Below are positions 3,001 through 20,521 of a DNA stretch of 47,118 bases, one piece after another (position 1 is the stretch's first letter; each line of letters opens with the position of its first letter). Position numbers and translations under genes: made by a program. The notes beneath the pieces were generated by a model. That model made no database searches and was not told where the DNA came from. It was given only the letters and a program-made list of their open reading frames with translations. Source of the DNA: Phycisphaerae bacterium (GTDB lineage: Bacteria > Planctomycetota > Phycisphaerae > WQYP01); contig DATJSN010000040.1 in NCBI GenBank assembly GCA_035504095.1, positions 1-47,118 on the forward strand, read 5' to 3'.

Positions 3001-3470
3001 CGCTGCCGCCGTCGACATCGAGATATTGCAGCGCAACAGTGTTGCCGACATCTCCGTCAAAAGACGTCAGGCCGGTGGTGTCCACCGTCAGGCCATCTGT
3101 CCCGGCGGCATTGCCGTCATTAATCGTTGAATCAAAGGTGATAGCGCCGCCATCGGTGTCCGCCAGCGTGGTCGTCGCCGTGATTAACACCGCGCCGCCA
3201 TAAATCTGGCCGCCCACATCCGTGGTCACGCCGGCGCCATTGATGTCGATGTCGCTGCCGAGATATACGCCGGTGTTGTCCACGTCAAGATATTGCAGCG
3301 CCGCAGAATTGCCGACTGATCCTTTAAAGTCGGTCAGGCCGGTGGTGTCCACCGTCAGGCCGTCTGTCCCTGCGGCATTGCCGTCGTCGATGGTCGATGT
3401 AAAGATAATATCCGCGCCATCGGTATCCAACAGCGAGATGGTCCCACCGATCAGCACCGGTCCGGTATAA
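1..3470. repeat. Tandem array of about 13 or more near-identical coding repeats of about 250 bp (about 83 aa, ...INDGNAAGTDGLTVDTTGLTDFKGSVGN...) inside TpsA. A longer super-period of about 1005-1026 bp is also visible, and the array continues off the left edge.
   Basis: The string gccgtcattaat(c/g)gttgaatcaaaggtgat recurs at about 85, 340, 590, 838, 1085, 1350, 1620, 1870, 2115, 2380, 2625, 2870 and 3120. ccgccggaatagcccatgccggtatc recurs at about 221, 1226 and 2252. Confidence 0.85.
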
Positions 3471-6439: not shown

Positions 6440-6466
6440 AATGCCCTTCTCCGGAAATACCGTCCG

Positions 6467-8503
6467 TTAGTAGCTAATTGAAAACAAAAAATTAAACTGG
6501 CTCGATCCAGCGGATACGCCTCCCTGGCCAGTTGCTTCCGGACTCACGGGTGTCAAGGCAATGCCCCAGTCCACCAGGGCCGAAACGTTTTTCCATAGCG
6601 TGACCTGCGCCCCCACACCTGTGCTGATTAACGTCGCCCCCGCTTCATATGACTGTGGATGGCTTTGTCCCACTTCTCCTGCATCCACAAATGTGCTCAA
6701 TACCAGATCCCAATCCGGCTGGCCGTATGGTGTTGGTGGCGCGGTATAAAACGGTTGGCCCAGAAAAGTTGTTGGGTTTGGATTGACCGGAAACAGCCGT
6801 GGAATGTGCAGGTTGTATTGAATTGTGCCCCAAATGGCGCTATCACCTGCGACAATCGTCTGTGGATAACCGCGGACCGTAAATAGTCCGCCTATGACCG
6901 CCTCTTGCTGCGGAACCAGACGCTGGTCGAAAGCCTCCTGGCCGTTGATGCGGAACACAATTTCATTGGCCATTGTGCTGGTTCCGCTTGCGAAACTCTG
7001 CGGGAATAGCAAAGGTTCCAGATAGAAGGAAACTTCGTAATTACCTTGCAGAATTGCCCACGTCGGATCAGTGTTCAACCTCCCCAGGTTATTGAGTTGC
7101 GTTGAGCTTGAGGAAGTATATTGACCGAGCACCGTCAAATTTCCGTTTTGTTGAGATGTGTTGCCAACACGAGTCATCCTCAGCGTAAGATAAGGGTAAA
7201 GAAAGTCAGCTTCGCCGGTCTGTTGGAAAGCTACGTCATCGACATAAGAATACTCGTATTCTGCGCCCAGTACGCCGTAAAAAAATAGTTTATTAAACTG
7301 AGCAAGGGTCAGAATGACTTCAGCACCTCCTGAAGCGAGTTCGCCGTTTAAATTTGAATTGCCCAAACCGATATTGGACGCAGTGTATTGTTCATAGCCG
7401 CCATACATACGGCCTTGCAGTTGATTGATGCCAATAATTGGAAATTGGTATGAGGCACTAATATCATTCATTTTGGAAAATCCGGCAGTGGCATAACTAA
7501 GGTTAAGAATATCGTCGTGGCCGGTCAGTTCAGTATCGTTAAACCCGAACTGTTCCATCCATGGATTCGTTTGTTTTGTGCCGGTGTTGGACAACTGCGC
7601 GTAAGCCACCCATGGTTTTGATTGATTAACGAGGTAATCCAATGTCACTGAATCGACCTGATTGCCGGGCGAGATCGCGATGCTAACCCGCCGACTCGTC
7701 TGCTGATTCAGGAGCGATATGTAATCATCAAGAGCGTCTTCTTGAAGGAGATCTTTCGTTTGCATTTGGTTGGTACTGCTCGCCGGTTGGATTGGCGAAT
7801 GTTGCCGGATGAAGGCGGCCTGTGGATTGTTAATCACCTGCGTTCCTGACATCCCCGGTCCAGACGAAATCGTTCGAACGTCGGTCACAATTGCGGTGTG
7901 AATCACCAGATGTAAGAGCGTATCACCAGCAGGGCGCAAATCGCGTGGCCCACTAAAGTCTTTTGTTGAGACTTGAACATACAATCCGATGATGTGCCTT
8001 TGATGTATTGCCGCGACAATCTGAAGTTCGATGCTTTGCAACGCGCTGGAATAAAAACGATGCGGTATGTTTTGCGCGTTGAACTGCGCCAGCGTCATGG
8101 TACTCGATGGATATATGATTCCACGACTTTGAGCAGATGTTTTGACCGCGACATATCCGTCACGGCTCAACGCCAATTGGATCGGCAGGTCCATCAGTGT
8201 GGTTAGTGCTGGAAGAGCCTCGCGATCGTGCGCGTAACTTAACACGAATTGGCTGATGCTGTAGGCACGGCCGTCGTCCGGCTCCTGGGCGGGTGGAAGA
8301 ACATTGGAGGATGGAACATGCGATGGTGGTGTGCTTTGGGCAGTGGTGGAACCAATTGCCATTGCGGGTCCGCTGAAGGCGTTAAGAATGCCCGCCAGGG
8401 CTGCTGTCAGGAGAAACCCGGCGCCCCATCGTTTATATTTTTTGTAAATTGGGCTAGTCAAGACGCTTCGTCGCGGCCATTTTAACAAACGCTGTGCGTC
8501 CAT
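6467..8503 (-). CDS. TpsB outer-membrane transporter of the two-partner secretion system (ShlB/FhaC/HecB family, POTRA plus beta-barrel).
   Basis: 678-aa ORF with a signal peptide (GFLLTAALAGILNAFSGPAMA) and a long region rich in beta-strand-forming residues. It ends in an aromatic residue (…FSISY), as Omp85/TpsB barrels typically do. It is immediately upstream of, and co-oriented with, the TPS-domain exoprotein, which is the classic tpsB-tpsA order. Confidence 0.7.
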   Translation of the reverse strand: MDAQRLLKWPRRSVLTSPIYKKYKRWGAGFLLTAALAGILNAFSGPAMAIGSTTAQSTPPSHVPSSNVLPPAQEPDDGRAYSISQFVLSYAHDREALPALTTLMDLPIQLALSRDGYVAVKTSAQSRGIIYPSSTMTLAQFNAQNIPHRFYSSALQSIELQIVAAIHQRHIIGLYVQVSTKDFSGPRDLRPAGDTLLHLVIHTAIVTDVRTISSGPGMSGTQVINNPQAAFIRQHSPIQPASSTNQMQTKDLLQEDALDDYISLLNQQTSRRVSIAISPGNQVDSVTLDYLVNQSKPWVAYAQLSNTGTKQTNPWMEQFGFNDTELTGHDDILNLSYATAGFSKMNDISASYQFPIIGINQLQGRMYGGYEQYTASNIGLGNSNLNGELASGGAEVILTLAQFNKLFFYGVLGAEYEYSYVDDVAFQQTGEADFLYPYLTLRMTRVGNTSQQNGNLTVLGQYTSSSSTQLNNLGRLNTDPTWAILQGNYEVSFYLEPLLFPQSFASGTSTMANEIVFRINGQEAFDQRLVPQQEAVIGGLFTVRGYPQTIVAGDSAIWGTIQYNLHIPRLFPVNPNPTTFLGQPFYTAPPTPYGQPDWDLVLSTFVDAGEVGQSHPQSYEAGATLISTGVGAQVTLWKNVSALVDWGIALTPVSPEATGQGGVSAGSSQFNFLFSISY

Positions 8504-8780
8504 GAGGCTACCTTTGTTTCTCCGACCCTTCTACCACGCTCTAATCGCACCACACAAATACTCCGGCATACTCGCGAAATCGCTAACATTGATTTGTCAA
8601 ACTTTTTTGGAGCGGCGCGCACTAGGCCAGAAGTACTCTTAAGACATTCCCTGTCACTTATCTATTAATAGAGGCGATGTTACATTTGGTCTGATTGATA
8701 TGTCAAGTATTAATAGCATATTTGTCGTAGTTTGTGAAAATTTCAGTGCTCGTTCGACATAACCGCGTGGGCTTGTATAT

Positions 8781-9800
8781 CTAGCTAAGGAACGAAGGAG
8801 CCGGCTTATCACCGGCTGAACGACATACAGTGAGATAATCACGCACTTGCTGTAGAAATTGCGGATTGAGTTCAAACGGAATGTCGCTTACCAGGGGCAT
8901 TCTCGCCAATCCGGCACGCAAACAGAACAAGGCCGCTGGTTTCGGTTCGCCAATAATCAAGTCAACAAAATCATTTCGATTATCCGTTTTGTCCTTCGGC
9001 GACCAATATTCTATCGCGGAAACCGGATAGGTTGCGCCAAGCATTGAATGAATTAAGGAACACCACATACGGGCGGAAAACCACTTTTGCTGATCGTTCA
9101 ACGGCAGTCGTAATGATTCAGTGGGGGCATCAGCCGGGTCGTGCGATATTGCGTCAATCGCCCTTTGAGTCGCGTAGAAAATGCGTGAAGCAGCAACGGG
9201 TTCCTCATTGGCAAATAGCATTGCTACCTGATCGCCGGTCATGGAGTGGTTCACTTTTGTGTTGACCGGTGTCAGTTGTTTGGCAGCAATAGTTTGAATC
9301 TTTTGTTGTGTTGCGCTTACTTTTGTCCGCACTTCATCAGCGGAATCGGTGTTTTGCAGCGAATCACGCAATTCCAGAAGCAACGGGCAGATTTGCCGCT
9401 CTACTTCGGCTGGACTGAAACCACGTGACTGCAGGGCCACCACCAGCGGATAAAGACTCCTGCCCTTGCCGTCCGTGGAAGCGGAAAGTGTTGCCCAAAA
9501 ATAATGGCTATCACGACTGTATACTAAGAGATGATTGAATTCCGGGAGCCGTTGATCGACGGACAGTTGTGCCCAGGTACCTGAATCAATATTTCTTCCA
9601 ATTCCCTCCACGTATATGATGCGTTTGAATTCCTGCATGTCACGGCTTTGTTCCCCAATATCGTCCATGTGATCATCCCAGGCGGGATGCTTGCCGAACA
9701 CGCTTAAGGCCAGCAAGGGCTCTGTGGACATAGCGGAGAAAATTCGAGATTTAAACTTCTGGAGGAAATCGCCCAATTGATCACCTTTTTCGACTAACAA
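8781..9800 (-). CDS. tagF: TagF-like type VI secretion-associated protein (DUF2094 / ImpM family).
   Basis: The N-terminal FGKHPAWDDHMDD resembles the TagF FYGKLPxRGDF motif, and ...DGKGRSLYPLVVAL resembles the conserved GRxFPL block. The gene is translationally coupled just downstream of tssM, as in tssL-tssM-tagF operons. Confidence 0.5.
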   Translation of the reverse strand: MLVEKGDQLGDFLQKFKSRIFSAMSTEPLLALSVFGKHPAWDDHMDDIGEQSRDMQEFKRIIYVEGIGRNIDSGTWAQLSVDQRLPEFNHLLVYSRDSHYFWATLSASTDGKGRSLYPLVVALQSRGFSPAEVERQICPLLLELRDSLQNTDSADEVRTKVSATQQKIQTIAAKQLTPVNTKVNHSMTGDQVAMLFANEEPVAASRIFYATQRAIDAISHDPADAPTESLRLPLNDQQKWFSARMWCSLIHSMLGATYPVSAIEYWSPKDKTDNRNDFVDLIIGEPKPAALFCLRAGLARMPLVSDIPFELNPQFLQQVRDYLTVCRSAGDKPAPSFLS

Positions 9801-9812
9801 CTCGGTGGAATT

Positions 9813-12800
9813 CTATTCCTTTTCATGCGGCCAGTCAGATAGTTGTGGCAGGGACCTGGAGAAAATCATCTCAAGGTGCGTCATATGGTCCTTATGAAAT
9901 TGATCTTGTATATGAATAGTAATCGTCCATGTCATTCCATCTTTGGTTGTCCCGTTATTCAGGACCAGCAACTTTAAAGCCGCCCAGGGACCCCGGAAAT
10001 CCATGGTCACCGGAATGGCTCCGGCCACCGTCGGGTCTGTTTCAAAAAAATTCAGCTTGAGCGACGCCTGGGGTTGGTCCGGTATCGTGAGTTGACCCAG
10101 ACTGTCATCAGAGAGGTTGTCAAAATTTGCTATTCCCATGAGTTTGGCTTTCTCTTGCTCCGCACCCATGTCTGTAACGGTCATATAGGGCCAGATCGCT
10201 GATACCGTGTTGTTTGGATCTTGTTTGATATCCTTTGTAATAAACAGCTGACAGGTTAGCGCAGGCTCTGCTCCATTGCCAATGATAGCATCCAGTATCT
10301 TATAAATAGCGGCCACATTCGCGCCTGTTAAGTCAAATTTCTGGTAAGAGATATTCCCCTGCAGAACACTCCACCAATGGTTGAAATCGTCGTTATTGGT
10401 ATCCGCTACTTCTAAAGAAGACGTCGATGAGTCGAGCAGGTTATGAAAGTCCGGCGATAGCGTATTCAAATCGTAGAGCGACCATTCATTCTGCGGCGAA
10501 TCGGCGGAAGCGGGGATATATAAAGGAAAAGCCGGATTTTCCCATATCTTCGTCAGAACAACATCAGCCCGCTGTTGGCTTTCTTTGGCCAGGGTTCTTA
10601 AACCGCTCAGTGTTAACTGGCAGATATAGTTCGAGGCAAAATTCGGCGTTGTTGATGATGGTACGAAGATATAGTCGTTATATACTTTATCCGGCAATTC
10701 AGTTAACAGCGTTTGTCTGGCAACGGCGTAATCGTTCGCCAGTTGCGTCCATTGATTCAGCTTGTTCTGCACGTCATTTGCAAAGGACGTCTCGTTGAGG
10801 AGATTAAGACCCATTTTTATGTTGTTTTTAGCGTCGCTGATCCTGTTACTTAGTGAGTCTGGAATCGCGACCGCTTCCAGTGAACCGTTTACTTGCGCGC
10901 CCAGACTTTCCAGAGCGGCCAAAAGATGGCCTTCCTGTGGTAACTGGCTCAGATAGTTCGTCCATTTTCCGTCAGGTACATCGATCTTCAAACCGTCATC
11001 TAAAGTTGACAGCCAATAGACAAAGTAGGCTTGCCGGTAAGCGTCAAAGGCCGAGTTGGCTTGTTGATACTTAACGGAAAGATTGCTGGCATCAGCAATT
11101 GAATTGTAATTGTTTATTCCGCTGACGGCGTCAGAAAGCAGTTTTCCACACTGATACCATCCATCAAGCAGTTTCGCCGCTGGCAAGGGATCAAACGCGG
11201 GATTGAATGTTCCACCGGCATCGGAGGTGAATGGTATTGAAGGCTTGACTGGCGTTGTTGATCCGTTGACAGACGCCTGTTGTACTAATGATTCAATGGA
11301 TGCCGCATCGGCTGGAGCCTGACGAATGGCCAGGCCGATGGCCTGTCCGTATCGATATGACTCAATCAATGTCAGCGCTTTGAGTGCCGCTTGAATTGCT
11401 TCACTATTGTATGAAGCGTTAGCTTCCGAACCGGCGGCTTCAATCGTGTTCTTGGTCTGCTCAATCAGCGTTTCGGTTTGGGGCAGTTGGTCGGTGCTGA
11501 ATTCCTCCAGCCATCCTTTGATTTGCATAAGCGATGTCGGATCGGCGGGAGTATTGACCAAATTCGCAAGCGACTGATACATCGCCTGCCGCTGCCATAT
11601 CTCCAGGTCGGTCCCCGCCGGGGAAAGAAATTTTTGATCCAAATCAGCAAATTGCGGGTCGGCTTCTGTAGCGCTATTGGTTATTGCTGTTTGCAGGCTA
11701 TTCCACGATTGCTGGAGTGTTCCCGCCTGTGGCATCGAATTATCCATTGATTTAAACCAACCTGCGGCCTGTTCCAGGCGGTCCCACACCTGCAGTCGAT
11801 TTTGATTTAAAGCCGAGGCATAGTTCAGGTAAGAAATGGTAAGAGTGCCGAATTTTCCCAGCGCCGGCAAATTAGCACGAACTTGTGCGGCTGAAGTGGC
11901 CAATTCTTGCAGCAGCACCACAAGTTTGTTGTAAGACGCAGAGTCGGCGCCGTCGGTTGGAGTATATGCCGCGGCGACATTCATCATCTGACCCTCTGTC
12001 GCCTCATAATTTTCCAAAGCTGTCTCAAGATTCATGAGATGCTGTATATTCTTGTTTCCCGCCTTAACTATATTGTTTTCCCCATTAATGACGCTCTGAA
12101 TACCATTGGCAATGGAGTCCGCCGGATCCGCGGATTGGATTATGCTTTGCAGAGCCGACGACCACTGTTGATCCGGTGTATAAAGCGACCGAATGATTTT
12201 CTGGTTCAGAACGCTTTGATACTGCTTGTAGCTTTGGTAATCAGTCGGAGATAAAACGTAAGCGACCAGATAATCGATATTTGCCCGACTGTTCTCAGAC
12301 GCGTATGAGGTATCTTGAGGGTAATAAGCCAGATGCGCCAAATCAATTAATTCGCACAGGGCATCGGTACGCACCTTAAGATCCATTGGCGTCGCGGATT
12401 GTTGATCCAATGGTTCAGCGGAAAGCTTTGATTCACACGCCTGAATGATGGGCAACAGGGCTTCATCATTATAAATTTTCATGAATGCCTGGTGTTGTTG
12501 TTGATTGATCTTGTCGCCAAAGGCCAGAGAAATGGGCCGAAATATCCAGGGGATTTGAATATCTTTGCGGACAAGCTCGAATCCATCATTGTAAAAATCG
12601 GCCAGACGGCTTTCATTTGCTTCAATGGTATGCTTGCCGTTGTACCCGTAATTGGAGCCGTTATCGGAATCGTGAACGATCATTGCCATGTAATCGGGAT
12701 TATTCGACGTGTAAATCTGCGCGGCGACCTGCCAATATTGACGCGGATATCCCACGCTGTTTGTCAATTCGAAAAAAGCGTAAAAAGTGGATGCGAGTAG

Positions 12801-14192
12801 AATACCAACGGCCGCAAAGCCACTTACGAGCACCGCAATCTTGCGACGGCTCTGAAGTTTCTTGGCGTTGTTGGCACGCGTGACCAATCCATGTTCTTTG
12901 AATATTTTCTGAACGAACAGGTCACGCAGAAAATAGGCACGATCGCGCCGCCACACGCCACTCGACGGGAGCGCGTCAATGGACACCCCCAACGCCTGGG
13001 CCAGATCAGCATCTAACGCTTTACCCTCCGACAAAGAAGACGTGAAATATATGCCTCTTAGAAACAACGGTTTGGCCGACCATTCCCCAACGGCAAAAAT
13101 AATCTCCAAGTACTGTTTCAGCCGAGATGTAATTTGTAAGAGCGCCTCTGGAAATGCGTATAGCGTATCCATCTGATCCATCCGGCGCATATTGGGATCT
13201 TCTGTTTGGGCAGGATGGGCTAAGAGCAATCCTCTGCGTTCGGCCAGTTGGTCGCGTACTTGTTTAAGATAACTATCCAGTTTTTCGACATTGAATGGAA
13301 CATCAAGCGGCTCGGGATTGGACCATCCCATGATCTGATGTTGCAGGCGCGGATCCGTCAGATCATCAAAAAATTGACTAAAGCCCGGCAGATAGTCGGA
13401 TTTGGTTATTAAAACAAATACCGGAAAGCGCACACCCAGCGTGCGTTGAATATTAACAAGTTGCTGAGAAATTTTACCCGCGTTTTTAGCAATTACTTCG
13501 GCGGAATCCGTCAACAGACTCTCGGCGGGTATCACCAGTAACATGCCGTTAATCGGACAATTAGGCCTGTACGAACGAAGCAATTTAAGAAATTCCTGCC
13601 ATTCGCTGCTGGTGCCGGGCGCAACCTCCTCAAACATCAGCCGACCGGCGGTGTCGAGAATGACAGCATGGTTCGTAAACCACCAATTCATGTTGACTGT
13701 ACCGCCGGCGCCCTGGAGTTGATCGTGTAAACCAGGCGGAAATCCTACAGCGGAATGACGGATCGCTTCGGTCTTGCCCGACCCCGGCTGACCGACCAGA
13801 ACAAACCACGGTAAGCTATAAAGGTCTTTACCTGCCGCGCGAAATTTTTCTATGCCAGCAGCAAAAACGCGGCGTAACGAATCCAGATCCGCTAATTTTT
13901 TCGCTTCGCTGACCTGCTGTGGCGTCGACCCGGCGTTGGCCGCCAGGACTTTTTCCATCGGTTTGGATTTGCTTTTATTCCACCATCCCAGGATCACCTG
14001 AAAAAGCGCATACGCGACAATCGCGACAACCAGCAAGATCACCAGCAACAGCAATAATTGACCATGTCCCTCAACGGCCAGTGCGATTGCGCCCACCAGG
14101 CCCGCGCATACAACCGCGATTGCAGCTATCTTCTGAATGATGGACAGGTTTCCAACAAACGACAGGAAATCCATAGTCTTATTCACCTGCAA
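9813..14192 (-). CDS. tssM: Type VI secretion system membrane subunit TssM (IcmF family), 1459 aa.
   Basis: Two N-terminal TM helices, then a cytoplasmic P-loop NTPase domain (Walker A, VLVGQPGSGKTEAI). A third TM helix follows at about residues 440-465 (KIAVLVSGFAAVGILLASTFYAFFEL), then a very long periplasmic region. This is the canonical TssM/IcmF topology. Confidence 0.75.
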   Translation of the reverse strand: MQVNKTMDFLSFVGNLSIIQKIAAIAVVCAGLVGAIALAVEGHGQLLLLLVILLVVAIVAYALFQVILGWWNKSKSKPMEKVLAANAGSTPQQVSEAKKLADLDSLRRVFAAGIEKFRAAGKDLYSLPWFVLVGQPGSGKTEAIRHSAVGFPPGLHDQLQGAGGTVNMNWWFTNHAVILDTAGRLMFEEVAPGTSSEWQEFLKLLRSYRPNCPINGMLLVIPAESLLTDSAEVIAKNAGKISQQLVNIQRTLGVRFPVFVLITKSDYLPGFSQFFDDLTDPRLQHQIMGWSNPEPLDVPFNVEKLDSYLKQVRDQLAERRGLLLAHPAQTEDPNMRRMDQMDTLYAFPEALLQITSRLKQYLEIIFAVGEWSAKPLFLRGIYFTSSLSEGKALDADLAQALGVSIDALPSSGVWRRDRAYFLRDLFVQKIFKEHGLVTRANNAKKLQSRRKIAVLVSGFAAVGILLASTFYAFFELTNSVGYPRQYWQVAAQIYTSNNPDYMAMIVHDSDNGSNYGYNGKHTIEANESRLADFYNDGFELVRKDIQIPWIFRPISLAFGDKINQQQHQAFMKIYNDEALLPIIQACESKLSAEPLDQQSATPMDLKVRTDALCELIDLAHLAYYPQDTSYASENSRANIDYLVAYVLSPTDYQSYKQYQSVLNQKIIRSLYTPDQQWSSALQSIIQSADPADSIANGIQSVINGENNIVKAGNKNIQHLMNLETALENYEATEGQMMNVAAAYTPTDGADSASYNKLVVLLQELATSAAQVRANLPALGKFGTLTISYLNYASALNQNRLQVWDRLEQAAGWFKSMDNSMPQAGTLQQSWNSLQTAITNSATEADPQFADLDQKFLSPAGTDLEIWQRQAMYQSLANLVNTPADPTSLMQIKGWLEEFSTDQLPQTETLIEQTKNTIEAAGSEANASYNSEAIQAALKALTLIESYRYGQAIGLAIRQAPADAASIESLVQQASVNGSTTPVKPSIPFTSDAGGTFNPAFDPLPAAKLLDGWYQCGKLLSDAVSGINNYNSIADASNLSVKYQQANSAFDAYRQAYFVYWLSTLDDGLKIDVPDGKWTNYLSQLPQEGHLLAALESLGAQVNGSLEAVAIPDSLSNRISDAKNNIKMGLNLLNETSFANDVQNKLNQWTQLANDYAVARQTLLTELPDKVYNDYIFVPSSTTPNFASNYICQLTLSGLRTLAKESQQRADVVLTKIWENPAFPLYIPASADSPQNEWSLYDLNTLSPDFHNLLDSSTSSLEVADTNNDDFNHWWSVLQGNISYQKFDLTGANVAAIYKILDAIIGNGAEPALTCQLFITKDIKQDPNNTVSAIWPYMTVTDMGAEQEKAKLMGIANFDNLSDDSLGQLTIPDQPQASLKLNFFETDPTVAGAIPVTMDFRGPWAALKLLVLNNGTTKDGMTWTITIHIQDQFHKDHMTHLEMIFSRSLPQLSDWPHEKE

Positions 14193-14230
14193 AAACCGCT
14201 TTACTCATTTTGGCGGTTCGACAAAAAACT

Positions 14231-14962
14231 TTATTTTTGCAAAATTTTATCCAAAGCATTATTTAACTGGCCGATACTTTGGTGGAAAAGATAAAAATTC
14301 GCGATCAACAGTGTCACAAAGCACACCAACAACACCACGGCAATGCCGAAAAGTTTTACCCCGGGCGGTTCGATAAGATTAGCGGTGTTAACGTGCTCAT
14401 AATTTTCAGGACAAATTTTTCGCATATCCGTGTCCTTCGCACCGGCATAAAGCCGCGCACGAACCTCTTTGATCTTTTTCTTCAAATACTCGGGTTGGTC
14501 TCTGTAGGAACCGGTAAAGCCTAAACCCAAACAGGCAGAGAATATTTTTAATCGCCATATAGCCGCCGGCGATTTGTCCTTCAGTGTTTCGTCCAACAAG
14601 ACGAAAAATTTCTCATTGCCGTTCGGTTCGTTGTAATCGGATGCGATTTCTTTAAACTTTTTGGAAATCGTATAGCCGCCTTCTTTTATGGTAAAGTCGG
14701 CGAAAAAGATCAGGGGCTGTTCAATTTTTTCAAATTCTACGGCTAATTCATCAGAGGCAGTTGCCCCGTTTTTCATCTTTGCTAACAGTTCATTGATGTC
14801 AGCCCGCACTTGATCGGCGTCTATTTGTGCGCCATTACGTGCTGAGCGGTTCAGGCGGCAAAAATATTGAAAGAATGGTTCTGTAAGGTCCAGAAGCGTC
14901 AGTCGCGCTTCGCTGGCGTGCAGAAAATGAAAAAATGGATCGTTCAGATCTACAAGCGTCAT
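14231..14962 (-). CDS. tssL: TssL / DotU-family protein (T6SS membrane-complex subunit); cytoplasmic domain plus a single C-terminal TM anchor.
   Basis: 243 aa, a size typical for DotU. There is a single C-terminal TM helix (LFGIAVVLLVCFVTLLIANFYLF). It lies immediately upstream of tssM on the same strand. My sequence-level recognition here is moderate and rests on architecture and position. Confidence 0.55.
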   Translation of the reverse strand: MTLVDLNDPFFHFLHASEARLTLLDLTEPFFQYFCRLNRSARNGAQIDADQVRADINELLAKMKNGATASDELAVEFEKIEQPLIFFADFTIKEGGYTISKKFKEIASDYNEPNGNEKFFVLLDETLKDKSPAAIWRLKIFSACLGLGFTGSYRDQPEYLKKKIKEVRARLYAGAKDTDMRKICPENYEHVNTANLIEPPGVKLFGIAVVLLVCFVTLLIANFYLFHQSIGQLNNALDKILQK

Positions 14963-15025
14963 AAACTATCCTGTTCCGTTAATGAGTGCGTGACGTTGGT
15001 CCATCGACGCGCAGTCAGGCATTGT

Positions 15026-15991
15026 TTAGATTACCCTATCCACGAATTCACGAACAATCTCCCTGATCTCATGATCCACGTCCGCTTCATCAAGATTTTC
15101 TGCAGCCAGTTCACAGTATTTTTCCCAACACAAAATTTTTATAGATGCCAGAAACTTTTTGTGTTCGGTTCGAACAGCGGCTTCAATTTCTGCCGGTGCG
15201 AATTTCTTTCCGTAACGAGATGAAAATTGGCGCCCCGTTTCCCCCACGGAAGATAGCAACGCCGCATTAAGTTTTCGAAGCTTTTCCAATTCGTTTGACA
15301 CCTGCTCGCGGGATACTTCCGGATCGTTGGCCATGAAACGGCTTATAAGACGTTGCAGCGGCGCTCCACGATGCATTTTCGATCCCGGTGCGATGATCTT
15401 CCACATGTTCCACGCAATTTGATCGATGCTCAACGTTAAGTCGGAAAGTATGAGGGCCAGTTCCAGCACATGGCCCGCATGGGGATGTAAACCATCTTCC
15501 AATTGGAGACGGTTTCGAAATTTAGACAGTGGTTCGCCAGGCCAGTCCGGACCGGATCGTGGAATAAGGCCGGCATCAGCCAATCGTTCAATTAGAGTTT
15601 CTTTTAGCGCCTGCGGCAATTTGGGGGCCAGCTTGCAAAGTTGTTGCACCAGAAAGAATGGGTCCTGCTGATCCATCGCGCCGGCATTGGAATTCGCCTC
15701 TGTTTGGCTTTGCACGGATGCGTTAACCTGTTGTCGGGTGATATCATTGCCATCCCAACGCGGAAATTGTTCAGCAAGGGCGGAGCAAAATTCCGGTCTT
15801 TGGGTTGGAGCAATTACCGCCATCGACCGCTTGATTTCATTGGAAATAAATTCCTGTCGAGCCTGAAGCGGTTCCTGCATCATGTCCGCTTGAAGGGCTC
15901 GGATTCGGTTGGCAAGCCGCGCTGCCTCAGGCAAAATGTCTGAATCCATCTCTGTCATATGATCTCGTTGACGTAATACTGGATCGCGCAA
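15026..15991 (-). CDS. Hypothetical all-alpha soluble protein (321 aa), first gene of the tssL-tssM-tagF operon, occupying the position tssK usually holds. No recognisable family.
   Basis: Long ORF with a 63-bp gap to tssL on the same strand. No signal peptide and no TM helix. Rich in helix-forming residues. Confidence 0.55.
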   Translation of the reverse strand: MRDPVLRQRDHMTEMDSDILPEAARLANRIRALQADMMQEPLQARQEFISNEIKRSMAVIAPTQRPEFCSALAEQFPRWDGNDITRQQVNASVQSQTEANSNAGAMDQQDPFFLVQQLCKLAPKLPQALKETLIERLADAGLIPRSGPDWPGEPLSKFRNRLQLEDGLHPHAGHVLELALILSDLTLSIDQIAWNMWKIIAPGSKMHRGAPLQRLISRFMANDPEVSREQVSNELEKLRKLNAALLSSVGETGRQFSSRYGKKFAPAEIEAAVRTEHKKFLASIKILCWEKYCELAAENLDEADVDHEIREIVREFVDRVI

Positions 15992-16216
15992 TCTTGCATG
16001 GAACGATCAGCCCACTTCTGATCCCAAAGCCTATCCAGATGTTCTAAACTAATATAAAACCACCGCTTATGTAACGCAAGCAAAACATGGCAATTCGAGC
16101 AAAAACCAGAACATGTAGTTGTGAAAATAGCTTACGAATCGCATGATTGCAACAATATTTTTTTAGTGCAGAAGACGCGGAATTTGGTCGTCTTCTCGAT
16201 GTCTTAGCATTTAAAC

Positions 16217-16246
16217 TTGACAGGCCGCTAAACGGAGTTCTATAAC
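16217..16246 (+). promoter_or_regulatory. Candidate sigma70-like promoter for the CHAT-like gene (TTGACA, 18 bp spacer, TATAAC).
   Basis: ttgaca at 16217-16222 and tataac at 16241-16246, about 45 bp upstream of the ATG at 16291. Confidence 0.3.
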
Positions 16247-16290
16247 ACATTACGAGTTGGAAATTAGGTCTTTTTTTTCGAGATGTCATC

Positions 16291-16902
16291 ATGGTCGATA
16301 AAACCCGCGTTTTGTTTATAGCAGCAGATCCAGTGGACGTTGATTCATCGAAATTGAACGAAGAAATTCAGGAAGTAGAGCAACATATTCGAACGCCTGG
16401 TTTTCTCGAAGCTTTTGATTTAACTTCTAAATGGGCTCTTCGCTCTCAGGACCTGATCCAGGCCTTCCAGGATGTTCGTCCGGATATTGTTCACATCAGC
16501 GGCCATCGCTGCCGGATGTCTGAGTTTGTACTTGAGGACGCTCGTGGTATAGCCAAACCGGTTTCAGAATCCGCCCTGACCGAGCTATTCAGTCATGCGA
16601 AAGATAATGCCCGGCTGGTATTGCTTAATATGTGTCATTCGGGGCACCTGGCAAAGGCCATCAGCAACGTAATTGACTGTGCGATTGGAATAAACCAGCG
16701 TATTGACGACAAAGAAGCGGTTGTCTTCTCATCTCAATTTTATGGAGCACTGGCCTTGGGTCAGTCCGTCAGGAATTCATTTGAGCAGGGGCGAACCGCA
16801 CTCATGGTGGATGGAATTCCCGAAGAAAAGACCCCAATGCTTTTCATTCGTCCGGGCGCTGATGCCCTTCAGATTTCTTTTAGCAACCATAAGTCGAATT
16901 AG
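16291..16902 (+). CDS. Minimal CHAT-like / caspase-fold cysteine protease domain protein (203 aa).
   Basis: His and Cys motifs in caspase-hemoglobinase-fold order and spacing: ...DIVHISGHR... (His, about residue 70) and ...LVLLNMCHSGH... (Cys, about residue 115). These resemble the HxxGHG ... C(x)SG motifs of CHAT/C14 peptidases. There are no additional domains. Confidence 0.55.
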   Translation: MVDKTRVLFIAADPVDVDSSKLNEEIQEVEQHIRTPGFLEAFDLTSKWALRSQDLIQAFQDVRPDIVHISGHRCRMSEFVLEDARGIAKPVSESALTELFSHAKDNARLVLLNMCHSGHLAKAISNVIDCAIGINQRIDDKEAVVFSSQFYGALALGQSVRNSFEQGRTALMVDGIPEEKTPMLFIRPGADALQISFSNHKSN

Positions 16903-16975
16903 GCTCTGCTACGCTGATTTTTTGGCTACAAAATATTTATACGTAGCTTTTTAAAAATAAAATACGCGAAAAGAT
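16903..16975. terminator. Possible bidirectional terminator between convergent genes.
   Basis: Inverted repeat gctac...gtagc (gctacg...cgtagc) flanked by T- and A-runs (gtagctttttaaaaataaaa). The loop is long, so this is weak. Confidence 0.25.
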
Positions 16976-18144
16976 CAGATGATTTTGTGCGTCGCCAGGT
17001 CAATAGTGATTTGTTCGCGCAATTCACGATGGATTCCCACCAGGGCATTGAACTGGATAATCAGCAGCTTGGCCGTCGCCGTAACGGTCAAATATCCGTA
17101 ATCCTTAAATGCGCTGCGATAGAAAACTGTGCCGGTGCTGTCATGAACGATGGTGGGAGCGGGTACGGTCTGAAGCCCTATCCCGCCGGTGCCGACAATT
17201 AAATATGGAATGGTGCATTCTTTGCCATTCAAAATTTGCGTACGCACATAATGCTGATAATTATGCGTATGGGCGGAAATGACCGCATCAGGCAAAATAT
17301 TCGCGTCAGTGCAGCAACTATCGATATCCGCAAGCATTTCCGGACTACCCGGATACCCGGGGCCTGAGGAGTGAAATCCGCGCGCAAAAGGCGGATGATG
17401 TACGGCGATGATCAGCGCGTTACGCGGTCCATTGGCGCGGGCGGCGGCAATGGCGGCCAGGCGTGAATGCAGCCAAATTTTCTGCTTATGCCCAATATAG
17501 TGGTTGCTGATAATGCCTACGTTCTCTTCAGAGTTCGAGTAAAGTCCAAGGATATCCACAAATGGGGCCTTCAGATGCCAGTGCGGGCCGGGTTGATTCG
17601 GCATGAGTACGCCGAACTCGGTGGCCAACGGCGGCTGACTTTCCGGCGGCGTGCAGAAGTTTGCCTCAAAAGCGTTTAGCGTCGTCGGGTCGGTCGGTAG
17701 AAGTTCCTCTCCATCGTGGTTTCCGGGAATGGCAAAAATCAAACGGTCGTAGTGATCGTATATCCGGTAGAATTTGTCGGCATACCCCGCTTCTTTGTTT
17801 GATCCGTAAATGATATCTCCCAGAAGAATCAAACAACTCGGTCCCAATTCGTGATTGGTATTATTGATGTCCCGCGCCATGGCTTCGGCAACGTTTTTCT
17901 GCTCATTCGAGCCTACGCCGGTGTCACCGGTCATGTGGAAAATGAATTTGCCGCTGGAGACGATTTTATTGACGGCCTCGGGGCCAAAGTAATAGGTCAA
18001 ATCCATGATGCAATCGGTGCTCGGATGCGGGAAGGGTAGCCCAAGACCCTGGTAATCATTGCTGCTTCGGCGGGACGCCAGGTGCGTGCTCACGGATGGA
18101 AACTTTAAATGCGCGTTTGCAGGCGTTGGAGTGGTTTCGGGCAT
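16975..18144 (-). CDS. Calcineurin-like metallophosphoesterase.
   Basis: Classic motifs: GDTGVG, GDIIYG (GDxxY), GNHD, VHHPP, and SAHTHNYQHY (GH(T)H). Confidence 0.75.
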   Translation of the reverse strand: MPETTPTPANAHLKFPSVSTHLASRRSSNDYQGLGLPFPHPSTDCIMDLTYYFGPEAVNKIVSSGKFIFHMTGDTGVGSNEQKNVAEAMARDINNTNHELGPSCLILLGDIIYGSNKEAGYADKFYRIYDHYDRLIFAIPGNHDGEELLPTDPTTLNAFEANFCTPPESQPPLATEFGVLMPNQPGPHWHLKAPFVDILGLYSNSEENVGIISNHYIGHKQKIWLHSRLAAIAAARANGPRNALIIAVHHPPFARGFHSSGPGYPGSPEMLADIDSCCTDANILPDAVISAHTHNYQHYVRTQILNGKECTIPYLIVGTGGIGLQTVPAPTIVHDSTGTVFYRSAFKDYGYLTVTATAKLLIIQFNALVGIHRELREQITIDLATHKII

Positions 18145-18523: not shown

Positions 18524-20521
18524 ATGGCTGGCCAGATTCCTCCCGGTTTAATTATTGCGGGTATATTTTTTGGCGCGCTGGTTGTATTGGCGACTCTGAT
18601 CAAAATCAGCCGGGTTATCGTTTACGTCCCGAACAATATGGTCGGCGTAGTGGAAAAACTTTGGAGCCTCGGAGGCTCAATTGAATCGGGAATTATCGCA
18701 CTGGATCACAAGGCCGGGTTTCAGTCGGACCTTTTACGCGGCGGCATTCATTTTTTTACACCTTTTCAATACCGCATTCATAAATTGCCGCTGGTGACCG
18801 TGCCACAGGGGCGCATCGGCTACGTTTTCGCGCGCGACGGCAAGCCGCTGCAGCCGTCGCAAACGCTGGCCGCTAACGACGTGGCGCAGAATTTTGAAGA
18901 TGCTCGGGAATTCCTAAAGGATGGCCAAAAAGGCCCGCAGCGCAAACTGCTGCGTGAAGGGACATACGCCCTGAACCTGGCCCTGTTTGTGGTGATCACC
19001 GGCGACGCGGCGGCTTTCAGTATTTACACGCTGAACCTGAATTCCCAGGAACAAGCCATGTTCCAGGGAATGGCCAAAGTGATCAATGACCGCAGCGGTT
19101 TTTCGCCCGTGATTATTCGCGACGCCGATGACACGATCGGCATCGTGACCGTACACGACGGACCATCGCTTACCGGTGGAGAAATTATTGCGCCCATCGT
19201 GGGCGACGAAAAAAGCAACCACAACAATTTCCAAAATCCGGACGTGTTCCTGAAACTGGGCGGCCTGCGCGGCAGGCAATATCAGGTTCTGGTGGAAGGA
19301 ACCTATTACATCAACCGCCTGTTCGCCACAGTAGAACTGGTACCGAAAACGGTGGTAAGTATTGGTTTTGTGGGCGTGGTGGTTTCCTACACCGGCAAAC
19401 AGGGCCAGGATGTATCCGGAGACACTTACCGGCATGGCGAAATGGTCAATCAGGGATTCAAGGGCGTATGGGACACGCCTTTACTGCCGGGAAAATATGC
19501 ATTCAACATATACGCCGGCAACATTGTCCTGGTGCCCGTGACCAATTTTATTCTTAAATGGTCCAACGAAGTCACCGAATCACACAAACTGGATGAAAAT
19601 CTTTCGGAAATTTCTCTGATCACCAAGGACGCCTTCGAGCCGCAACTGCCGCTTTCGGTTGTTCTGCATATCGATTACAGCAAGGCGCCGCTGGTGATTC
19701 AGCGATTTGGAGACATCAAGAGGCTGGTGGAACAGACGCTGGATCCGATGGTGAGCGCCTATTTTAAAAACATCGGTCAGAATCGCACGCTCATCGAGTT
19801 GCTGCAGGATCGCAGCCAGATTCAGAACCAGTCGCAGCAGGAAATGCGCAGCAAATTCGCGGAGTACAACCTGGAACTCCAGGAAGTTCTGATCGGCACG
19901 CCGCATCCGCCAGCGGACAAGACCGGAAGCACCAGCAGCATCGAGCAGATTCTGATTCAATTGCGCGACCGGCAGGTAGCGCGCGAACAGGTGGAAACCT
20001 ACAAACTCCAGCAAGCGGCCGCCGAACAGGAACGGTCGCTGCGCGAATCCGCCGCGAAGGCCGCTCAACAGGCGGAGATCACCAAATCGGCGCTGGACAT
20101 CCAGATTCGTGAGAACGTGGGCAAAGCGGATCTGGCCAAAGCGCAGCAGGACGCCGAACGGGTGAAGGTCGAGGCCCGCGCCAATGCGGAACGCCTGAAA
20201 ATGGAAGGTGAAGGCGAAGCATCGCGTGTACAGCAGATTGGTTTTGCCAACGCCGCCGCCACACAAAAACAAGTAGAAGCCTACGGCGGCCCGCAATACC
20301 AAATGCTCCAGCAAGTGATGACCCGCATTGCCGAAGCGGCGGAAAAAGGCCAGATTCCTCTGGTGCCGCAGATCATGGTGGGCGGCGGCGCTGCCGGTCC
20401 CAATGGATCGCCGATGCAAGGAGGCGGATTAATCGAGGGGCTTTTGGCGCTGATGCTTTCCGAAAAACTGCAAAAGCCAGTTCCGCCGGCTAAACCGGCC
20501 GTAACAGCGAGCCCTGGTTAA
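18524..20521 (+). CDS. Flotillin-like SPFH/band-7 membrane protein (YqiK-like) with a C-terminal coiled coil.
   Basis: N-terminal TM helix (LIIAGIFFGALVVLATLI), an SPFH-like core, then a long E/A/Q/K/R-rich heptad region (…AEQERSLRESAAKAAQQAEITKSALDIQIREN…). The 279-aa minus ORF 19580..20419 is antisense to it. Confidence 0.7.
   Translation: MAGQIPPGLIIAGIFFGALVVLATLIKISRVIVYVPNNMVGVVEKLWSLGGSIESGIIALDHKAGFQSDLLRGGIHFFTPFQYRIHKLPLVTVPQGRIGYVFARDGKPLQPSQTLAANDVAQNFEDAREFLKDGQKGPQRKLLREGTYALNLALFVVITGDAAAFSIYTLNLNSQEQAMFQGMAKVINDRSGFSPVIIRDADDTIGIVTVHDGPSLTGGEIIAPIVGDEKSNHNNFQNPDVFLKLGGLRGRQYQVLVEGTYYINRLFATVELVPKTVVSIGFVGVVVSYTGKQGQDVSGDTYRHGEMVNQGFKGVWDTPLLPGKYAFNIYAGNIVLVPVTNFILKWSNEVTESHKLDENLSEISLITKDAFEPQLPLSVVLHIDYSKAPLVIQRFGDIKRLVEQTLDPMVSAYFKNIGQNRTLIELLQDRSQIQNQSQQEMRSKFAEYNLELQEVLIGTPHPPADKTGSTSSIEQILIQLRDRQVAREQVETYKLQQAAAEQERSLRESAAKAAQQAEITKSALDIQIRENVGKADLAKAQQDAERVKVEARANAERLKMEGEGEASRVQQIGFANAAATQKQVEAYGGPQYQMLQQVMTRIAEAAEKGQIPLVPQIMVGGGAAGPNGSPMQGGGLIEGLLALMLSEKLQKPVPPAKPAVTASPG

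What the first reader, a model, noticed from the sequence alone, without database searches (positions are those of the whole stretch)
16291..16902. Stand-alone minimal CHAT/caspase-fold protease divergently transcribed from the T6SS-like operon
The 203-aa protein has His (…VHISGHR…) and Cys (…LNMCHSGH…) motifs in the order and roughly 45-residue spacing of caspase-hemoglobinase-fold proteases. It has no partner domains, whereas CHAT domains are normally embedded in large multidomain proteins with TPR, SAVED or effector modules. It shares a 300-bp divergent control region with the operon, and that region contains a good sigma70-like promoter and a perfect 8-bp hairpin. It could be a regulator, a processing protease or an effector of the neighbouring secretion modules, or a trimmed defence-system component.
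Basis: partly seen in the sequence, partly recalled or inferred. Interest (0 to 1): 0.55.

Follow-up and report, generated by a model that had tools for sequence, protein, structure and literature searches.

The report
Orphan stand-alone CHAT caspase-like protein
This is a real, selectively maintained 203-residue caspase-fold (CHAT) protein in a Phycisphaerae bacterium; it is an unusually diverged, partner-less copy of a very common bacterial conflict-system protease module, and nothing beyond adjacency ties it to the secretion operon next door.

Summary
The ORF (16291-16902, +) is real and encodes a single-domain CHAT/caspase-fold protein. It passes Pfam CHAT only narrowly (24.2 vs 24 bits). 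A family profile matches the protease domain of SAVED-CHAT (8TL0) at E 1e-18, and a confident model (pLDDT 87) superposes on it (TM 0.80). His72 and Cys115 align with the validated dyad H375/C422.

It belongs to a huge family of compact ~200-aa CHAT modules (22,339 cluster representatives), usually fused to hypervariable partners (TIR, NACHT, EAD/Death-like, FHA, TPR). Solo forms make up 14% of the sample, so "stand-alone" is not exceptional. Other solo copies sit beside STAND/NACHT/TPR genes; this one does not.

It is the most divergent of 228 members: 30 of 92 conserved positions are changed, and the clan-CD His-Gly/Ala-Cys motif reads His-Arg/Met-Cys. It is not decaying. A 90%-identical orthologue shares these changes and dN/dS is 0.26.

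The link to the TssL/TssM-like operon is weak. CHAT is absent from 80 homologous operon loci and from the 85%-identity relative, and present only in the 90% relative. It behaves as a ~780-bp lineage-specific cassette at a synteny breakpoint.

Verdict: new, diverged member of a known kind. Whether it is catalytically active is unresolved.

The parts
16291..16902 (+). Gene for the 203-aa single-domain CHAT (clan CD caspase-like) protein
   Evidence: ORF. Pfam CHAT, 24.2 bits. Profile hit to 8tl0 at E 1.2e-18. AF2 pLDDT 87.3 and Foldseek TM 0.80 to SAVED-CHAT. dN/dS 0.26 against the L098 orthologue.
16504..16509 (+). Codons for His72 (catalytic-position His) and Arg73. Arg73 replaces the near-invariant Gly of the clan CD His-Gly motif.
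   Evidence: His72 aligns to SAVED-CHAT H375. At position 73 the family has Gly in 223 of 227 members and Arg in none. The same Arg is present in the L098 orthologue.
16630..16635 (+). Codons for Met114 and Cys115 (catalytic-position Cys). Met114 replaces the Ala of the Ala-Cys motif.
   Evidence: Cys115 aligns to SAVED-CHAT C422. At position 114 the family has Ala in 210 of 227 members and Met in none. The same Met is present in L098.
16217..16246 (+). Promoter-like element TTGACA-N18-TATAAC, ending 45 bp upstream of the ATG
   Evidence: Read from the sequence. Not called by the consensus scan because the final T is missing. Conserved in the L098 orthologous locus with one spacer change. Function is inferred only.
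16170..16196 (.). Perfect 8-bp inverted repeat with an 11-nt loop; probably fortuitous
   Evidence: Found. The left arm has 3 of 8 uncompensated differences in L098. The chance expectation is about 1 per kb (my estimate).
16136..16914 (+). Lineage-specific ~780-bp block (hairpin, promoter-like element and CHAT ORF). Present in the window and in L098/L099, absent from L100-L102.
   Evidence: blastn collinearity runs window 15027-16914 with L098, and only window 15020-16135 with L100. L100-L102 carry tRNA-Arg(CCT) there.
15992..16290 (.). Divergent intergenic region shared with the first gene of the TssL/TssM-like operon (15026-15991, minus strand)

Best explanation
What it is. The gene encodes a cytoplasmic, single-domain member of the compact (~200 aa) CHAT subfamily of clan CD caspase-like cysteine peptidases. 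This is the same module as the protease domain of SAVED-CHAT. In thousands of relatives it is fused to, or encoded next to, sensor or adaptor modules of bacterial conflict systems (TIR, NACHT/STAND, EAD and Death-like domains, FHA, TPR).

How it got here. The window copy is a lineage-specific orphan. A ~780-bp block carrying a promoter-like element and the ORF lies at a synteny breakpoint beside a TssL/TssM-plus-two-partner-secretion operon. The block is found only in this organism and in a ~90%-identical relative.

How it has evolved. On the way it fixed about 30 replacements at positions conserved in the family, including His-Gly to His-Arg and Ala-Cys to Met-Cys. Since then it has been kept by purifying selection.

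Most likely mechanism (inferred). It acts as a self-contained His72/Cys115 endopeptidase with a remodelled substrate site. It is switched on by self-association or by a partner encoded elsewhere in the genome, as in other caspase-fold enzymes. It acts on cytoplasmic target(s) and is not a built-in part of the neighbouring secretion operon.

What is shown: fold, family membership, dyad alignment, orphan context, selection. What is inferred: catalytic activity, mode of activation, substrates.
For: Fold and family:
- Pfam CHAT hit and PADLOC SAVED_CHAT hit.
- Profile hit to 8tl0 at E 1.2e-18, with H72/C115 aligned to the chain's H355/C402. These correspond to the published H375/C422 with a constant offset of 20.
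- AF2 pLDDT 87.3, and Foldseek TM 0.80 to SAVED-CHAT followed by caspases.

Family size and partners:
- 22,339 cluster representatives at E<=1e-3.
- 144 flanking segments fall into 110 clusters.
- Pfam partners include TIR_2, NACHT, EAD1/EAD11, bDLD3, FHA, FGE-sulfatase and TPR.

Solo forms:
- Solo architecture in 32 of 228 members.
- Other solo copies lie beside HetE-N/NACHT, nSTAND1, TPR or kinase genes.

Orphan status:
- No CHAT in 80 TssM-operon loci.
- None in 8 loci of the convergent phosphoesterase.
- No homologue in the window of any partner domain seen fused to relatives.
- No defence-family hits for the neighbouring genes.

Divergence:
- Mean identity to the family is 43.7%, against 63.8 +/- 3.1% for other members; it ranks 1st of 228 for divergence.
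- 30 of 92 conserved positions are changed; R73 and M114 are never seen in other members.

Selection:
- The orthologue in L098/L099 is 90% identical and shares 29 of the 30 deviant residues.
- dN/dS = 0.26, Fisher p 1.2e-5, close to the operon genes at 0.16-0.22.
- Only 1 of 20 differences between the orthologues falls at a conserved position, against 9.1 expected (P 5e-5).

Cassette boundaries.
Against: Catalytic activity is not shown.
- The Gly after the catalytic His supplies one oxyanion-hole amide in caspase-1 (PMC10088814). It is part of the clan-wide His-Gly...Ala-Cys motif (PMC12445089).
- Here both small residues are replaced by bulky ones. Several near-invariant polar residues are also lost: D23N, R27Q, Q120L, R158Q.
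- Because a third of conserved positions have changed, keeping both His and Cys could be chance (about 0.45), so their retention is weak evidence for catalysis.

The AF2 confidence comes from the family alignment and does not test the effect of these substitutions.

Only the window is available, so a cognate partner elsewhere in the genome is conjecture.

In the one close relative that has the gene, it is still next to the operon while the far flank differs. This leaves some room for a lineage-specific link to the operon.
Confidence: 0.55

Rival explanations
1. Non-catalytic pseudo-protease. The caspase fold is kept, but the remodelled active-site surroundings (His-Arg, Met-Cys, loss of D23, R27, Q120 and R158) have abolished peptidase activity. 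The protein would then work as a binding, adaptor or decoy module, in the manner of catalytically dead caspase homologues.
For: R73 and M114 are absent from 227 relatives, and four near-invariant polar residues are lost. 30 of 92 conserved positions are changed. Purifying selection shows the gene has a function but does not show catalysis. The Gly is an oxyanion-hole and clan CD motif residue (PMC10088814, PMC12445089).
Against: His72, Cys115, His68, Asn113 and Ser117 and the strands that carry them are retained in both orthologues. The oxyanion contribution comes from the backbone amide, so Arg need not abolish it. No experimental data exist either way.
Confidence: 0.27
2. One reading: the protease is a regulator, processing enzyme or effector of the neighbouring TssL/TssM-like plus two-partner-secretion operon, co-regulated through the shared divergent intergenic region.
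For: The divergent arrangement with a ~300-bp shared region exists. The adjacency and the promoter-like element are conserved in the 90% relative even though the far flank has been rearranged.
Against: 0 of 80 homologous operon loci carry a CHAT gene, 60 of them with >=1.5 kb upstream. The 85% relative has the full operon without it. The protein has no signal peptide: its N-terminus forms the first beta-strand of the fold. Relatives of the module associate with STAND, TIR and EAD systems and never with T6SS genes in the contexts examined.
Confidence: 0.1
3. Functional pair with a right-hand neighbour: either the convergent calcineurin-like phosphoesterase (16975-18144) or the SPFH/Band-7 protein (18524-20521).
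For: Two relatives (P0161, P0236) fuse a partial Band_7 segment to the CHAT module. That segment matches the window SPFH protein at pairwise E 8e-5 and 0.006.
Against: Collinearity with the 90% relative ends 12 bp after the CHAT stop. That genome has neither the phosphoesterase nor the SPFH gene nearby. Eight loci of phosphoesterase relatives lack CHAT. With more than 70 Pfam families fused to this module, one coincidental match among the neighbours is unsurprising.
Confidence: 0.04
4. Decaying remnant: a truncated fragment of a multidomain conflict-system protein drifting towards pseudogene status.
For: It has no partner domain or partner gene, it is the most divergent of 228 members, and its Pfam score is borderline.
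Against: dN/dS = 0.26 with p 1.2e-5, like the neighbouring genes. Differences between the orthologues avoid conserved positions (P 5e-5). The reading frame is intact and spans the whole module in two lineages. There is no relic of a lost domain in the 72 bp downstream or elsewhere in the window.
Confidence: 0.03

Closest known systems
CHAT domain of SAVED-CHAT (Haliangium ochraceum type III-B CRISPR/CBASS hybrid; PDB 8TL0; bioRxiv 10.1101/2023.06.23.546230)
   Same: Best sequence match (profile E 1.2e-18) and best structural match (TM 0.80). The compact ~200-residue caspase fold is the same, and His72/Cys115 align with the mutationally validated H375/C422.
   Different: The window protein has no SAVED sensor domain. 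There is no cyclase or Cas10, PCaspase or sigma-factor gene nearby. It carries His-Arg and Met-Cys where SAVED-CHAT has His-Gly and Ala-Cys. Sequence identity is only about 20-22%.
Caspase-like effector/signalling peptidases of NTPase-centred conflict systems coupled through EAD, Death-like or TRADD-N adaptors (Kaur et al., eLife 2020 PMC7159879; eLife 2021 PMC8195603)
   Same: Sequence relatives of the window protein carry EAD1, EAD11, bDLD3, NACHT and TIR domains, or sit beside HetE-N/NACHT/nSTAND1 genes. They show the same pattern of a constant peptidase module with hypervariable partners.
   Different: The window protein has no adaptor domain and no NTPase neighbour. Its sequence is far off the family consensus.
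EACC1-caspase two-gene membrane-associated system (System 4 of PMC7159879)
   Same: A constant N-terminal caspase-superfamily domain followed by a highly variable C-terminal domain. This is the commonest architecture in the sampled family (111 of 228 have a C-terminal extension).
   Different: No 5' gene for a small transmembrane protein precedes the window gene: no plausible same-strand ORF exists in the 300 bp upstream. There is no variable C-terminal domain. No EACC1 annotation appeared in the five solo contexts examined.
TPR-CHAT / Csx29 (Craspase, type III-E CRISPR) and separase
   Same: The CHAT protease fold (Foldseek hits to 8eex_B and 9hn5_A).
   Different: Those are large multidomain proteins regulated by Cas7-11 or securin. 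The window has no TPR region and no CRISPR genes.
Type IV Thoeris TIR + caspase-like protease (bioRxiv 10.1101/2024.10.24.620036)
   Same: A small caspase-fold protease used as an immune effector. TIR is the commonest identifiable fusion partner of the window protein's family (6 of 112 members).
   Different: No TIR gene was found in the window. Homology to that particular protease was not tested here.

Membership tests
Pfam CHAT (PF12770) / MEROPS clan CD caspase-like peptidases | Significant match to the family model | tested here: met
   24.2 bits against the 24-bit gathering cut-off, E 2.7e-5, so a narrow pass. 111 of 112 sequence relatives match CHAT. The profile hit to 8tl0 has E 1.2e-18.
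Pfam CHAT (PF12770) / MEROPS clan CD caspase-like peptidases | Caspase-hemoglobinase alpha/beta fold | tested here: met
   AF2 pLDDT 87.3, pTM 0.87. Foldseek matches SAVED-CHAT at TM 0.80, then caspases 11, 9 and 4, CED-3, MALT1 and separase. The model depends on the family alignment.
Pfam CHAT (PF12770) / MEROPS clan CD caspase-like peptidases | Catalytic His then Cys, each after a hydrophobic beta-strand | tested here: met
   H72 follows strand 66-71 and C115 follows strand 109-113. They align to the validated H375/C422 of SAVED-CHAT. The His-Cys distance in the model could not be measured because coordinates are not exposed.
Pfam CHAT (PF12770) / MEROPS clan CD caspase-like peptidases | His-Gly ... 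Ala-Cys motif (PMC12445089); the Gly amide contributes to the oxyanion hole (PMC10088814) | tested here: not met
   The window reads His-Arg and Met-Cys. In the family, Gly occupies the first site in 223 of 227 members and Ala the second in 210 of 227; Arg and Met are never seen. The L098 orthologue has the same residues.
Pfam CHAT (PF12770) / MEROPS clan CD caspase-like peptidases | Peptidase activity | not testable with these tools
   Requires biochemistry.
SAVED-CHAT (cyclic-oligonucleotide-activated protease) | N-terminal SAVED sensor domain | tested here: not met
   The protein is 203 aa and the CHAT module fills residues 1-~198. The PADLOC match covers only the CHAT part of the model, positions 308-451.
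SAVED-CHAT (cyclic-oligonucleotide-activated protease) | Genomic association with a cyclase or Cas10 and a PCaspase substrate | tested here: not met
   No such Pfam, PADLOC or NCBIfam hits in the window genes that were scanned.
EAD/Death-like-coupled or STAND-linked caspase effectors (Kaur et al.) | Fused adaptor (EAD, bDLD, TRADD-N) or adjacent STAND/NACHT NTPase | tested here: not met
   There is no extra domain. The neighbours are a phosphoesterase, an SPFH protein and TssL/TssM-like genes. No homologue of any of 144 partner segments is present in the window. A partner elsewhere in the genome cannot be excluded.
EAD/Death-like-coupled or STAND-linked caspase effectors (Kaur et al.) | Peptidase module homologous to those of such systems | tested here: met
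   Relatives at 40-57% identity carry EAD1, EAD11, bDLD3, NACHT or TIR domains, or lie in HetE-N/NACHT clusters.
EACC1-caspase two-gene system | 5' gene encoding the single-TM EACC1 protein | tested here: not met
   No plausible same-strand ORF exists in the 300 bp upstream, and the upstream gene is divergent. This rests on ORF inspection only; no EACC1 model was run.
T6SS (or T6SS-like) accessory component | Conserved co-occurrence with tssL/tssM-type genes | tested here: not met
   0 of 80 homologous operon loci carry it. It is absent from the 85% relative and present only in the 90% relative.

The most novel reading that the evidence does not exclude
A conflict-system caspase-like module was captured as a minimal promoter-plus-ORF cassette. 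Its active-site surroundings were re-engineered (His-Arg / Met-Cys and a new set of pocket residues). It was then domesticated in one Phycisphaerae lineage as a dedicated cytoplasmic processing or regulatory protease, or a protease-dead regulator, of the adjacent TssL/TssM-plus-TpsB/TpsA secretion operon, with which it shares a divergent control region.
Probability: 0.08. Interest if true: 0.55.

Novelty: new member of a known kind. Interest (0 to 1): 0.25.

Why it matters
The practical value is mostly corrective.

- Small CHAT genes that barely pass, or fail, Pfam thresholds can still be genuine caspase-fold proteins under selection. The 90% orthologue has no Pfam hit on record.
- "Stand-alone" CHAT modules are a common state of a very large family of conflict-system peptidases.
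- Adjacency to a secretion operon should not be read as function without comparative support.

The one biologically interesting point is a natural experiment. Here a caspase-fold protein has replaced both hallmark small residues of the clan CD His-Gly/Ala-Cys motif and is still kept by selection. Testing whether it still cleaves would say how dispensable those residues are. If it does not cleave, this would be an example of a bacterial pseudo-caspase.

Tried and rejected
1. First AF2 run with 4 sequences. The model was unusable (pLDDT 42.6). It was redone with 100 sequences.
2. Genome scan with the divergent neighbour (the 321-aa protein). No confirmed relative was found. The scan was repeated with the TssM-like protein, which succeeded.
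3. Rosetta-stone test. 144 partner segments fused to CHAT in relatives were searched against the window by tblastn. Only chance-level hits appeared (best E 0.009 over 144 queries).
4. Relic of a lost C-terminal domain downstream of the ORF. None was found, and only 72 bp are available there.
5. A second CHAT copy in the window. None was found.
6. EACC1-type upstream gene. There is no candidate ORF.
7. Phosphoesterase as a conserved partner. Rejected.
8. SPFH as a partner. There is a weak domain-level similarity to two fusion proteins, but the SPFH gene is not conserved next to the orthologue.
9. Pseudogene or decay hypothesis. I favoured this mid-way because of the extreme divergence. I rejected it after the orthologue was found (dN/dS 0.26).
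10. Hairpin as a regulatory element. It is not conserved and its frequency is at chance level.
11. Island integration at a tRNA. The tRNA-Arg is present only in the relative that lacks CHAT and is absent from the window and from L098. A simple tRNA-integration model is therefore not supported.
12. The afdb50 fold library was unavailable.
13. PADLOC and NCBIfam scans of the unannotated neighbours found nothing relevant.

Full report
**Observation**

The window has an ATG-initiated ORF at 16291-16902 (+) encoding 203 residues. It contains VHISGH72R and LNMC115HSGH, 43 residues apart.

It lies between two genes. Upstream is a divergent 321-aa gene (15026-15991, minus strand), which heads an operon. 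Downstream is a convergent calcineurin-like phosphoesterase gene (16975-18144, minus strand), 72 bp after the stop codon.

The resemblance to CHAT is not a chance pattern:
- Pfam CHAT scores 24.2 bits against a 24-bit gathering cut-off (E 2.7e-5).
- PADLOC's SAVED_CHAT model matches at E 1.7e-7, over its CHAT part only.
- A profile of the protein and its two nearest full-length relatives hits PDB 8tl0 (SAVED-CHAT) at E 1.2e-18.

**Fold and dyad**

An AlphaFold2 run with only four sequences failed (pLDDT 42.6). With a 100-sequence alignment the model is confident (pLDDT 87.3, pTM 0.87).

[quoted passage not shown] Caspases 11, 9, 4 and 1, CED-3, MALT1, Csx29 and separase follow.

In the HMM alignment, His72 and Cys115 pair with chain residues 355 and 402 of 8tl0. 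Both are offset by exactly 20 from the H375 and C422 that Steens et al. mutated to inactivate the enzyme. The fold and the positions of the dyad are therefore established as far as computation allows. The His-Cys distance could not be measured because model coordinates are not exposed.

**The family**

An exhaustive HMMER search of 1.84 billion cluster representatives returned 22,339 proteins at E<=1e-3 and 6,146 at E<=1e-30.

In the best hits the ~200-residue module is very well conserved. Other members average 63.8% identity to the rest of the family. What is attached to the module is not conserved:
- 144 flanking segments fall into 110 sequence clusters.
- 112 members carry 73 different Pfam families, including TIR_2, NACHT, EAD1, EAD11, bDLD3, FHA, FGE-sulfatase, pentapeptide, zinc ribbons, HEAT, TPR and CHASE2.

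This is the constant-peptidase, variable-partner pattern that Kaur et al. described for conflict systems of multicellular bacteria (PMC7159879).

Among 228 single-module proteins the architectures are:

| Architecture | Count |
|---|---|
| C-terminal extension | 111 |
| N-terminal extension | 78 |
| Both | 7 |
| Solo | 32 (14%) |

A further 16 proteins have tandem modules. Stand-alone is therefore a recurrent state, not an oddity.

Five solo members on informative contigs all sit in tight same-strand or adjacent arrangements with likely partners:
- HetE-N plus NACHT (L086, L087).
- nSTAND1 (L088).
- An overlapping TPR gene (L089).
- Two kinases plus an RNA_pol_A_CTD protein (L003).

**Context of the window copy**

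No such partner is present here.
- The left operon reads: 321-aa protein, DotU/TssL-like, TssM/IcmF-like, 339-aa protein, ShlB/TpsB-like, then a giant ORF of >=2155 aa that runs off the window.
- To the right lie the phosphoesterase, an SPFH protein, three unannotated genes, and then housekeeping genes.
- PADLOC and NCBIfam find nothing defence-related in these neighbours.
- None of the 144 partner segments has a homologue in the window.

A genome scan with the TssM-like protein retrieved 80 loci, almost all from Phycisphaerae/Planctomycetota MAGs. Operon genes recur in them:

| Gene | Loci with a homologue (of 80) |
|---|---|
| DotU/TssL-like | 76 |
| 321-aa protein | 67 |
| 339-aa protein | 64 |
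| TssK | 54 |
| CHAT | 0 |

CHAT is absent by tblastn and by hmmsearch at E<=1. Sixty of the loci have at least 1.5 kb upstream of the first operon gene. Eight metagenome loci of phosphoesterase relatives (62-67% identity) also lack CHAT.

**Close relatives**

Searching with the 321-aa protein found orthologues at 90% identity (L098/L099) and 85% identity (L100-L102).

L098/L099 carry a 203-aa orthologue of the CHAT gene in the same divergent position. It is 90% identical in protein and 92% in DNA. It has no Pfam hit on record.

Nucleotide collinearity shows where the shared sequence ends:
- With L098 it runs over window 15027-16914 and stops 12 bp after the CHAT stop codon. Beyond that point L098 has an 86-aa ORF, a GH79-like gene and a kdp operon, not the phosphoesterase.
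- With L100 it stops at window 16135, inside the intergenic region. L100-L102 have a tRNA-Arg(CCT) and a YhdP-like gene there, and no CHAT.

The unit that comes and goes is therefore a ~780-bp block, 16136-16914. It contains the inverted repeat, the TTGACA-N18-TATAAC element and the ORF, and it sits at a synteny breakpoint where three related genomes each have a different neighbour.

The promoter-like element is conserved in L098. The 8-bp hairpin is not: 3 of 8 left-arm positions differ without compensation.

**Divergence and selection**

The window protein is the most divergent of the 228 single-module proteins.
- Its mean identity to the family is 43.7%, against 63.8 +/- 3.1% for other members.
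- Its nearest relatives, P0002-P0004, are 74-85% identical to each other but only 52-57% identical to it.
- It deviates at 30 of the 92 positions that are >=85% conserved.
- Several of its residues are never seen in the other 227 members: S20, N23, Q27, R73, M114, E142.

R73 and M114 replace the Gly and Ala of the clan CD His-Gly...Ala-Cys motif (PMC12445089). In caspase-1 that Gly provides one of the two oxyanion-hole amides (PMC10088814).

At this point I favoured a decaying remnant. The orthologue refutes that:
- Nei-Gojobori dN/dS between the window and L098 is 0.26 (dN 0.051, dS 0.194). Synonymous versus non-synonymous changes give Fisher p 1.2e-5. The five operon genes give 0.16-0.22.
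- Of the 20 amino-acid differences between the two orthologues, only one falls at a family-conserved position, against 9.1 expected (P 5e-5).
- 29 of the 30 lineage-specific deviant residues are identical in both.

The protein is thus a stable, selected variant.

**Interpretation**

What is shown:
- A genuine CHAT-fold protein with the dyad residues in place.
- Functional in the sense of being under purifying selection.
- Lineage-specific.
- Without any detectable partner in cis.
- Without conserved association to the TssL/TssM-like operon beyond one close relative.

What is inferred: it still cleaves. A third of the conserved positions have changed, so retention of both His and Cys has a chance probability of about 0.45 and is weak evidence on its own. 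The strands and the neighbouring residues H68, S70, G71, N113 and S117 are also kept, which favours an intact catalytic centre with an altered pocket.

My estimates:
- About 0.55 for an active, self-contained peptidase. It would probably be activated by self-association or by a partner encoded elsewhere, as in SAVED-CHAT filaments and caspases.
- About 0.27 for a pseudo-protease.
- About 0.1 for a specific role with the adjacent operon.

**Novelty**

The kind is known: CHAT is in Pfam, SAVED-CHAT has been solved, and the conflict-system caspase modules have been described. Solo forms are common.

The particular features are:
- The His-Arg/Met-Cys active-site flanks, kept under selection.
- The orphan, cassette-like genomic behaviour.

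This is a new, strongly diverged member of a known kind and of modest interest.

Noticed in passing
window 2-15991 (minus strand); loci L005-L084, L098, L100: The neighbouring operon combines TssL/DotU-like and TssM/IcmF-like genes with two unannotated genes (321 aa and 339 aa), a ShlB/TpsB-like outer-membrane protein and a giant ORF of >=2155 aa that runs off the window. It therefore mixes T6SS membrane-complex parts with a two-partner-secretion pair. tblastn confirmed 224 related stretches, nearly all in Phycisphaerae/Planctomycetota, with a few in Verrucomicrobiota. This may merit its own study.
   Followed up: partly
window 14962-15026; L011:7856-9217; L025: Most related operons (54 of 80 loci) have a TssK/VasE gene (453 aa; Pfam T6SS_VasE, E 1e-73) between the 321-aa gene and tssL. 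The window and its close relatives L098 and L100 lack it: only ~63-380 bp lie between the two genes, and tblastn finds no TssK in the window.
   Followed up: partly
window 234-1235, 1239-2261, 2730-3203, 5552-6118 (+): These plus-strand ORFs of 150-340 aa have no Pfam hits. They lie opposite the giant minus-strand ORF 2-6466 and are most likely shadow ORFs rather than genes.
   Followed up: partly
L100:6828-6901, L101:4640-4713, L102:282-355: In the 85% relative a tRNA-Arg(CCT) gene occupies the place where the window and L098 have the CHAT block. Neither the window nor L098 has any tRNA gene. The region upstream of the operon is a rearrangement hotspot, with three different neighbours in three related genomes.
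   Followed up: partly
window 18524-20521 (+); proteins P0161, P0236, P0243: A 665-aa SPFH/Band-7 protein lies two genes from the CHAT gene. Some family members fuse a partial Band_7 segment (P0161, P0236) or a PspA/IM30 domain (P0243) to the CHAT module. This hints at membrane-stress-linked versions of the family.
   Followed up: partly
proteins P0005-P0012, P0015, P0026, P0030, P0033, P0034, P0036, P0079, P0102, P0107, P0112: Sixteen of 244 sampled relatives contain two or three tandem CHAT modules in one polypeptide. Their modules are more divergent than those of single-module proteins.
   Followed up: no
L003:1363-6136: The nearest relative, P0002 (233 aa, solo), is the sixth gene of a same-strand cluster. 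The cluster has two protein kinases, an RNA_pol_A_CTD-domain protein and two unknown proteins. Its start overlaps the stop of the preceding 402-aa gene, which suggests translational coupling.
   Followed up: no
window 42187-43936 (minus strand): A NotI-family restriction endonuclease gene overlaps a D12-class N6-adenine methyltransferase gene, which looks like a type II restriction-modification pair.
   Followed up: no
window 37826-39637 (+): A 603-aa protein fuses sigma-70 regions 2 and 4 (ECF-like) to Sel1/TPR repeats.
   Followed up: no
L098:9055-9666: The 90% orthologue of the CHAT protein has no Pfam hit on record in the public collection, and the window protein is flagged only 'faint'. 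Automated annotation would miss this lineage.
   Followed up: yes
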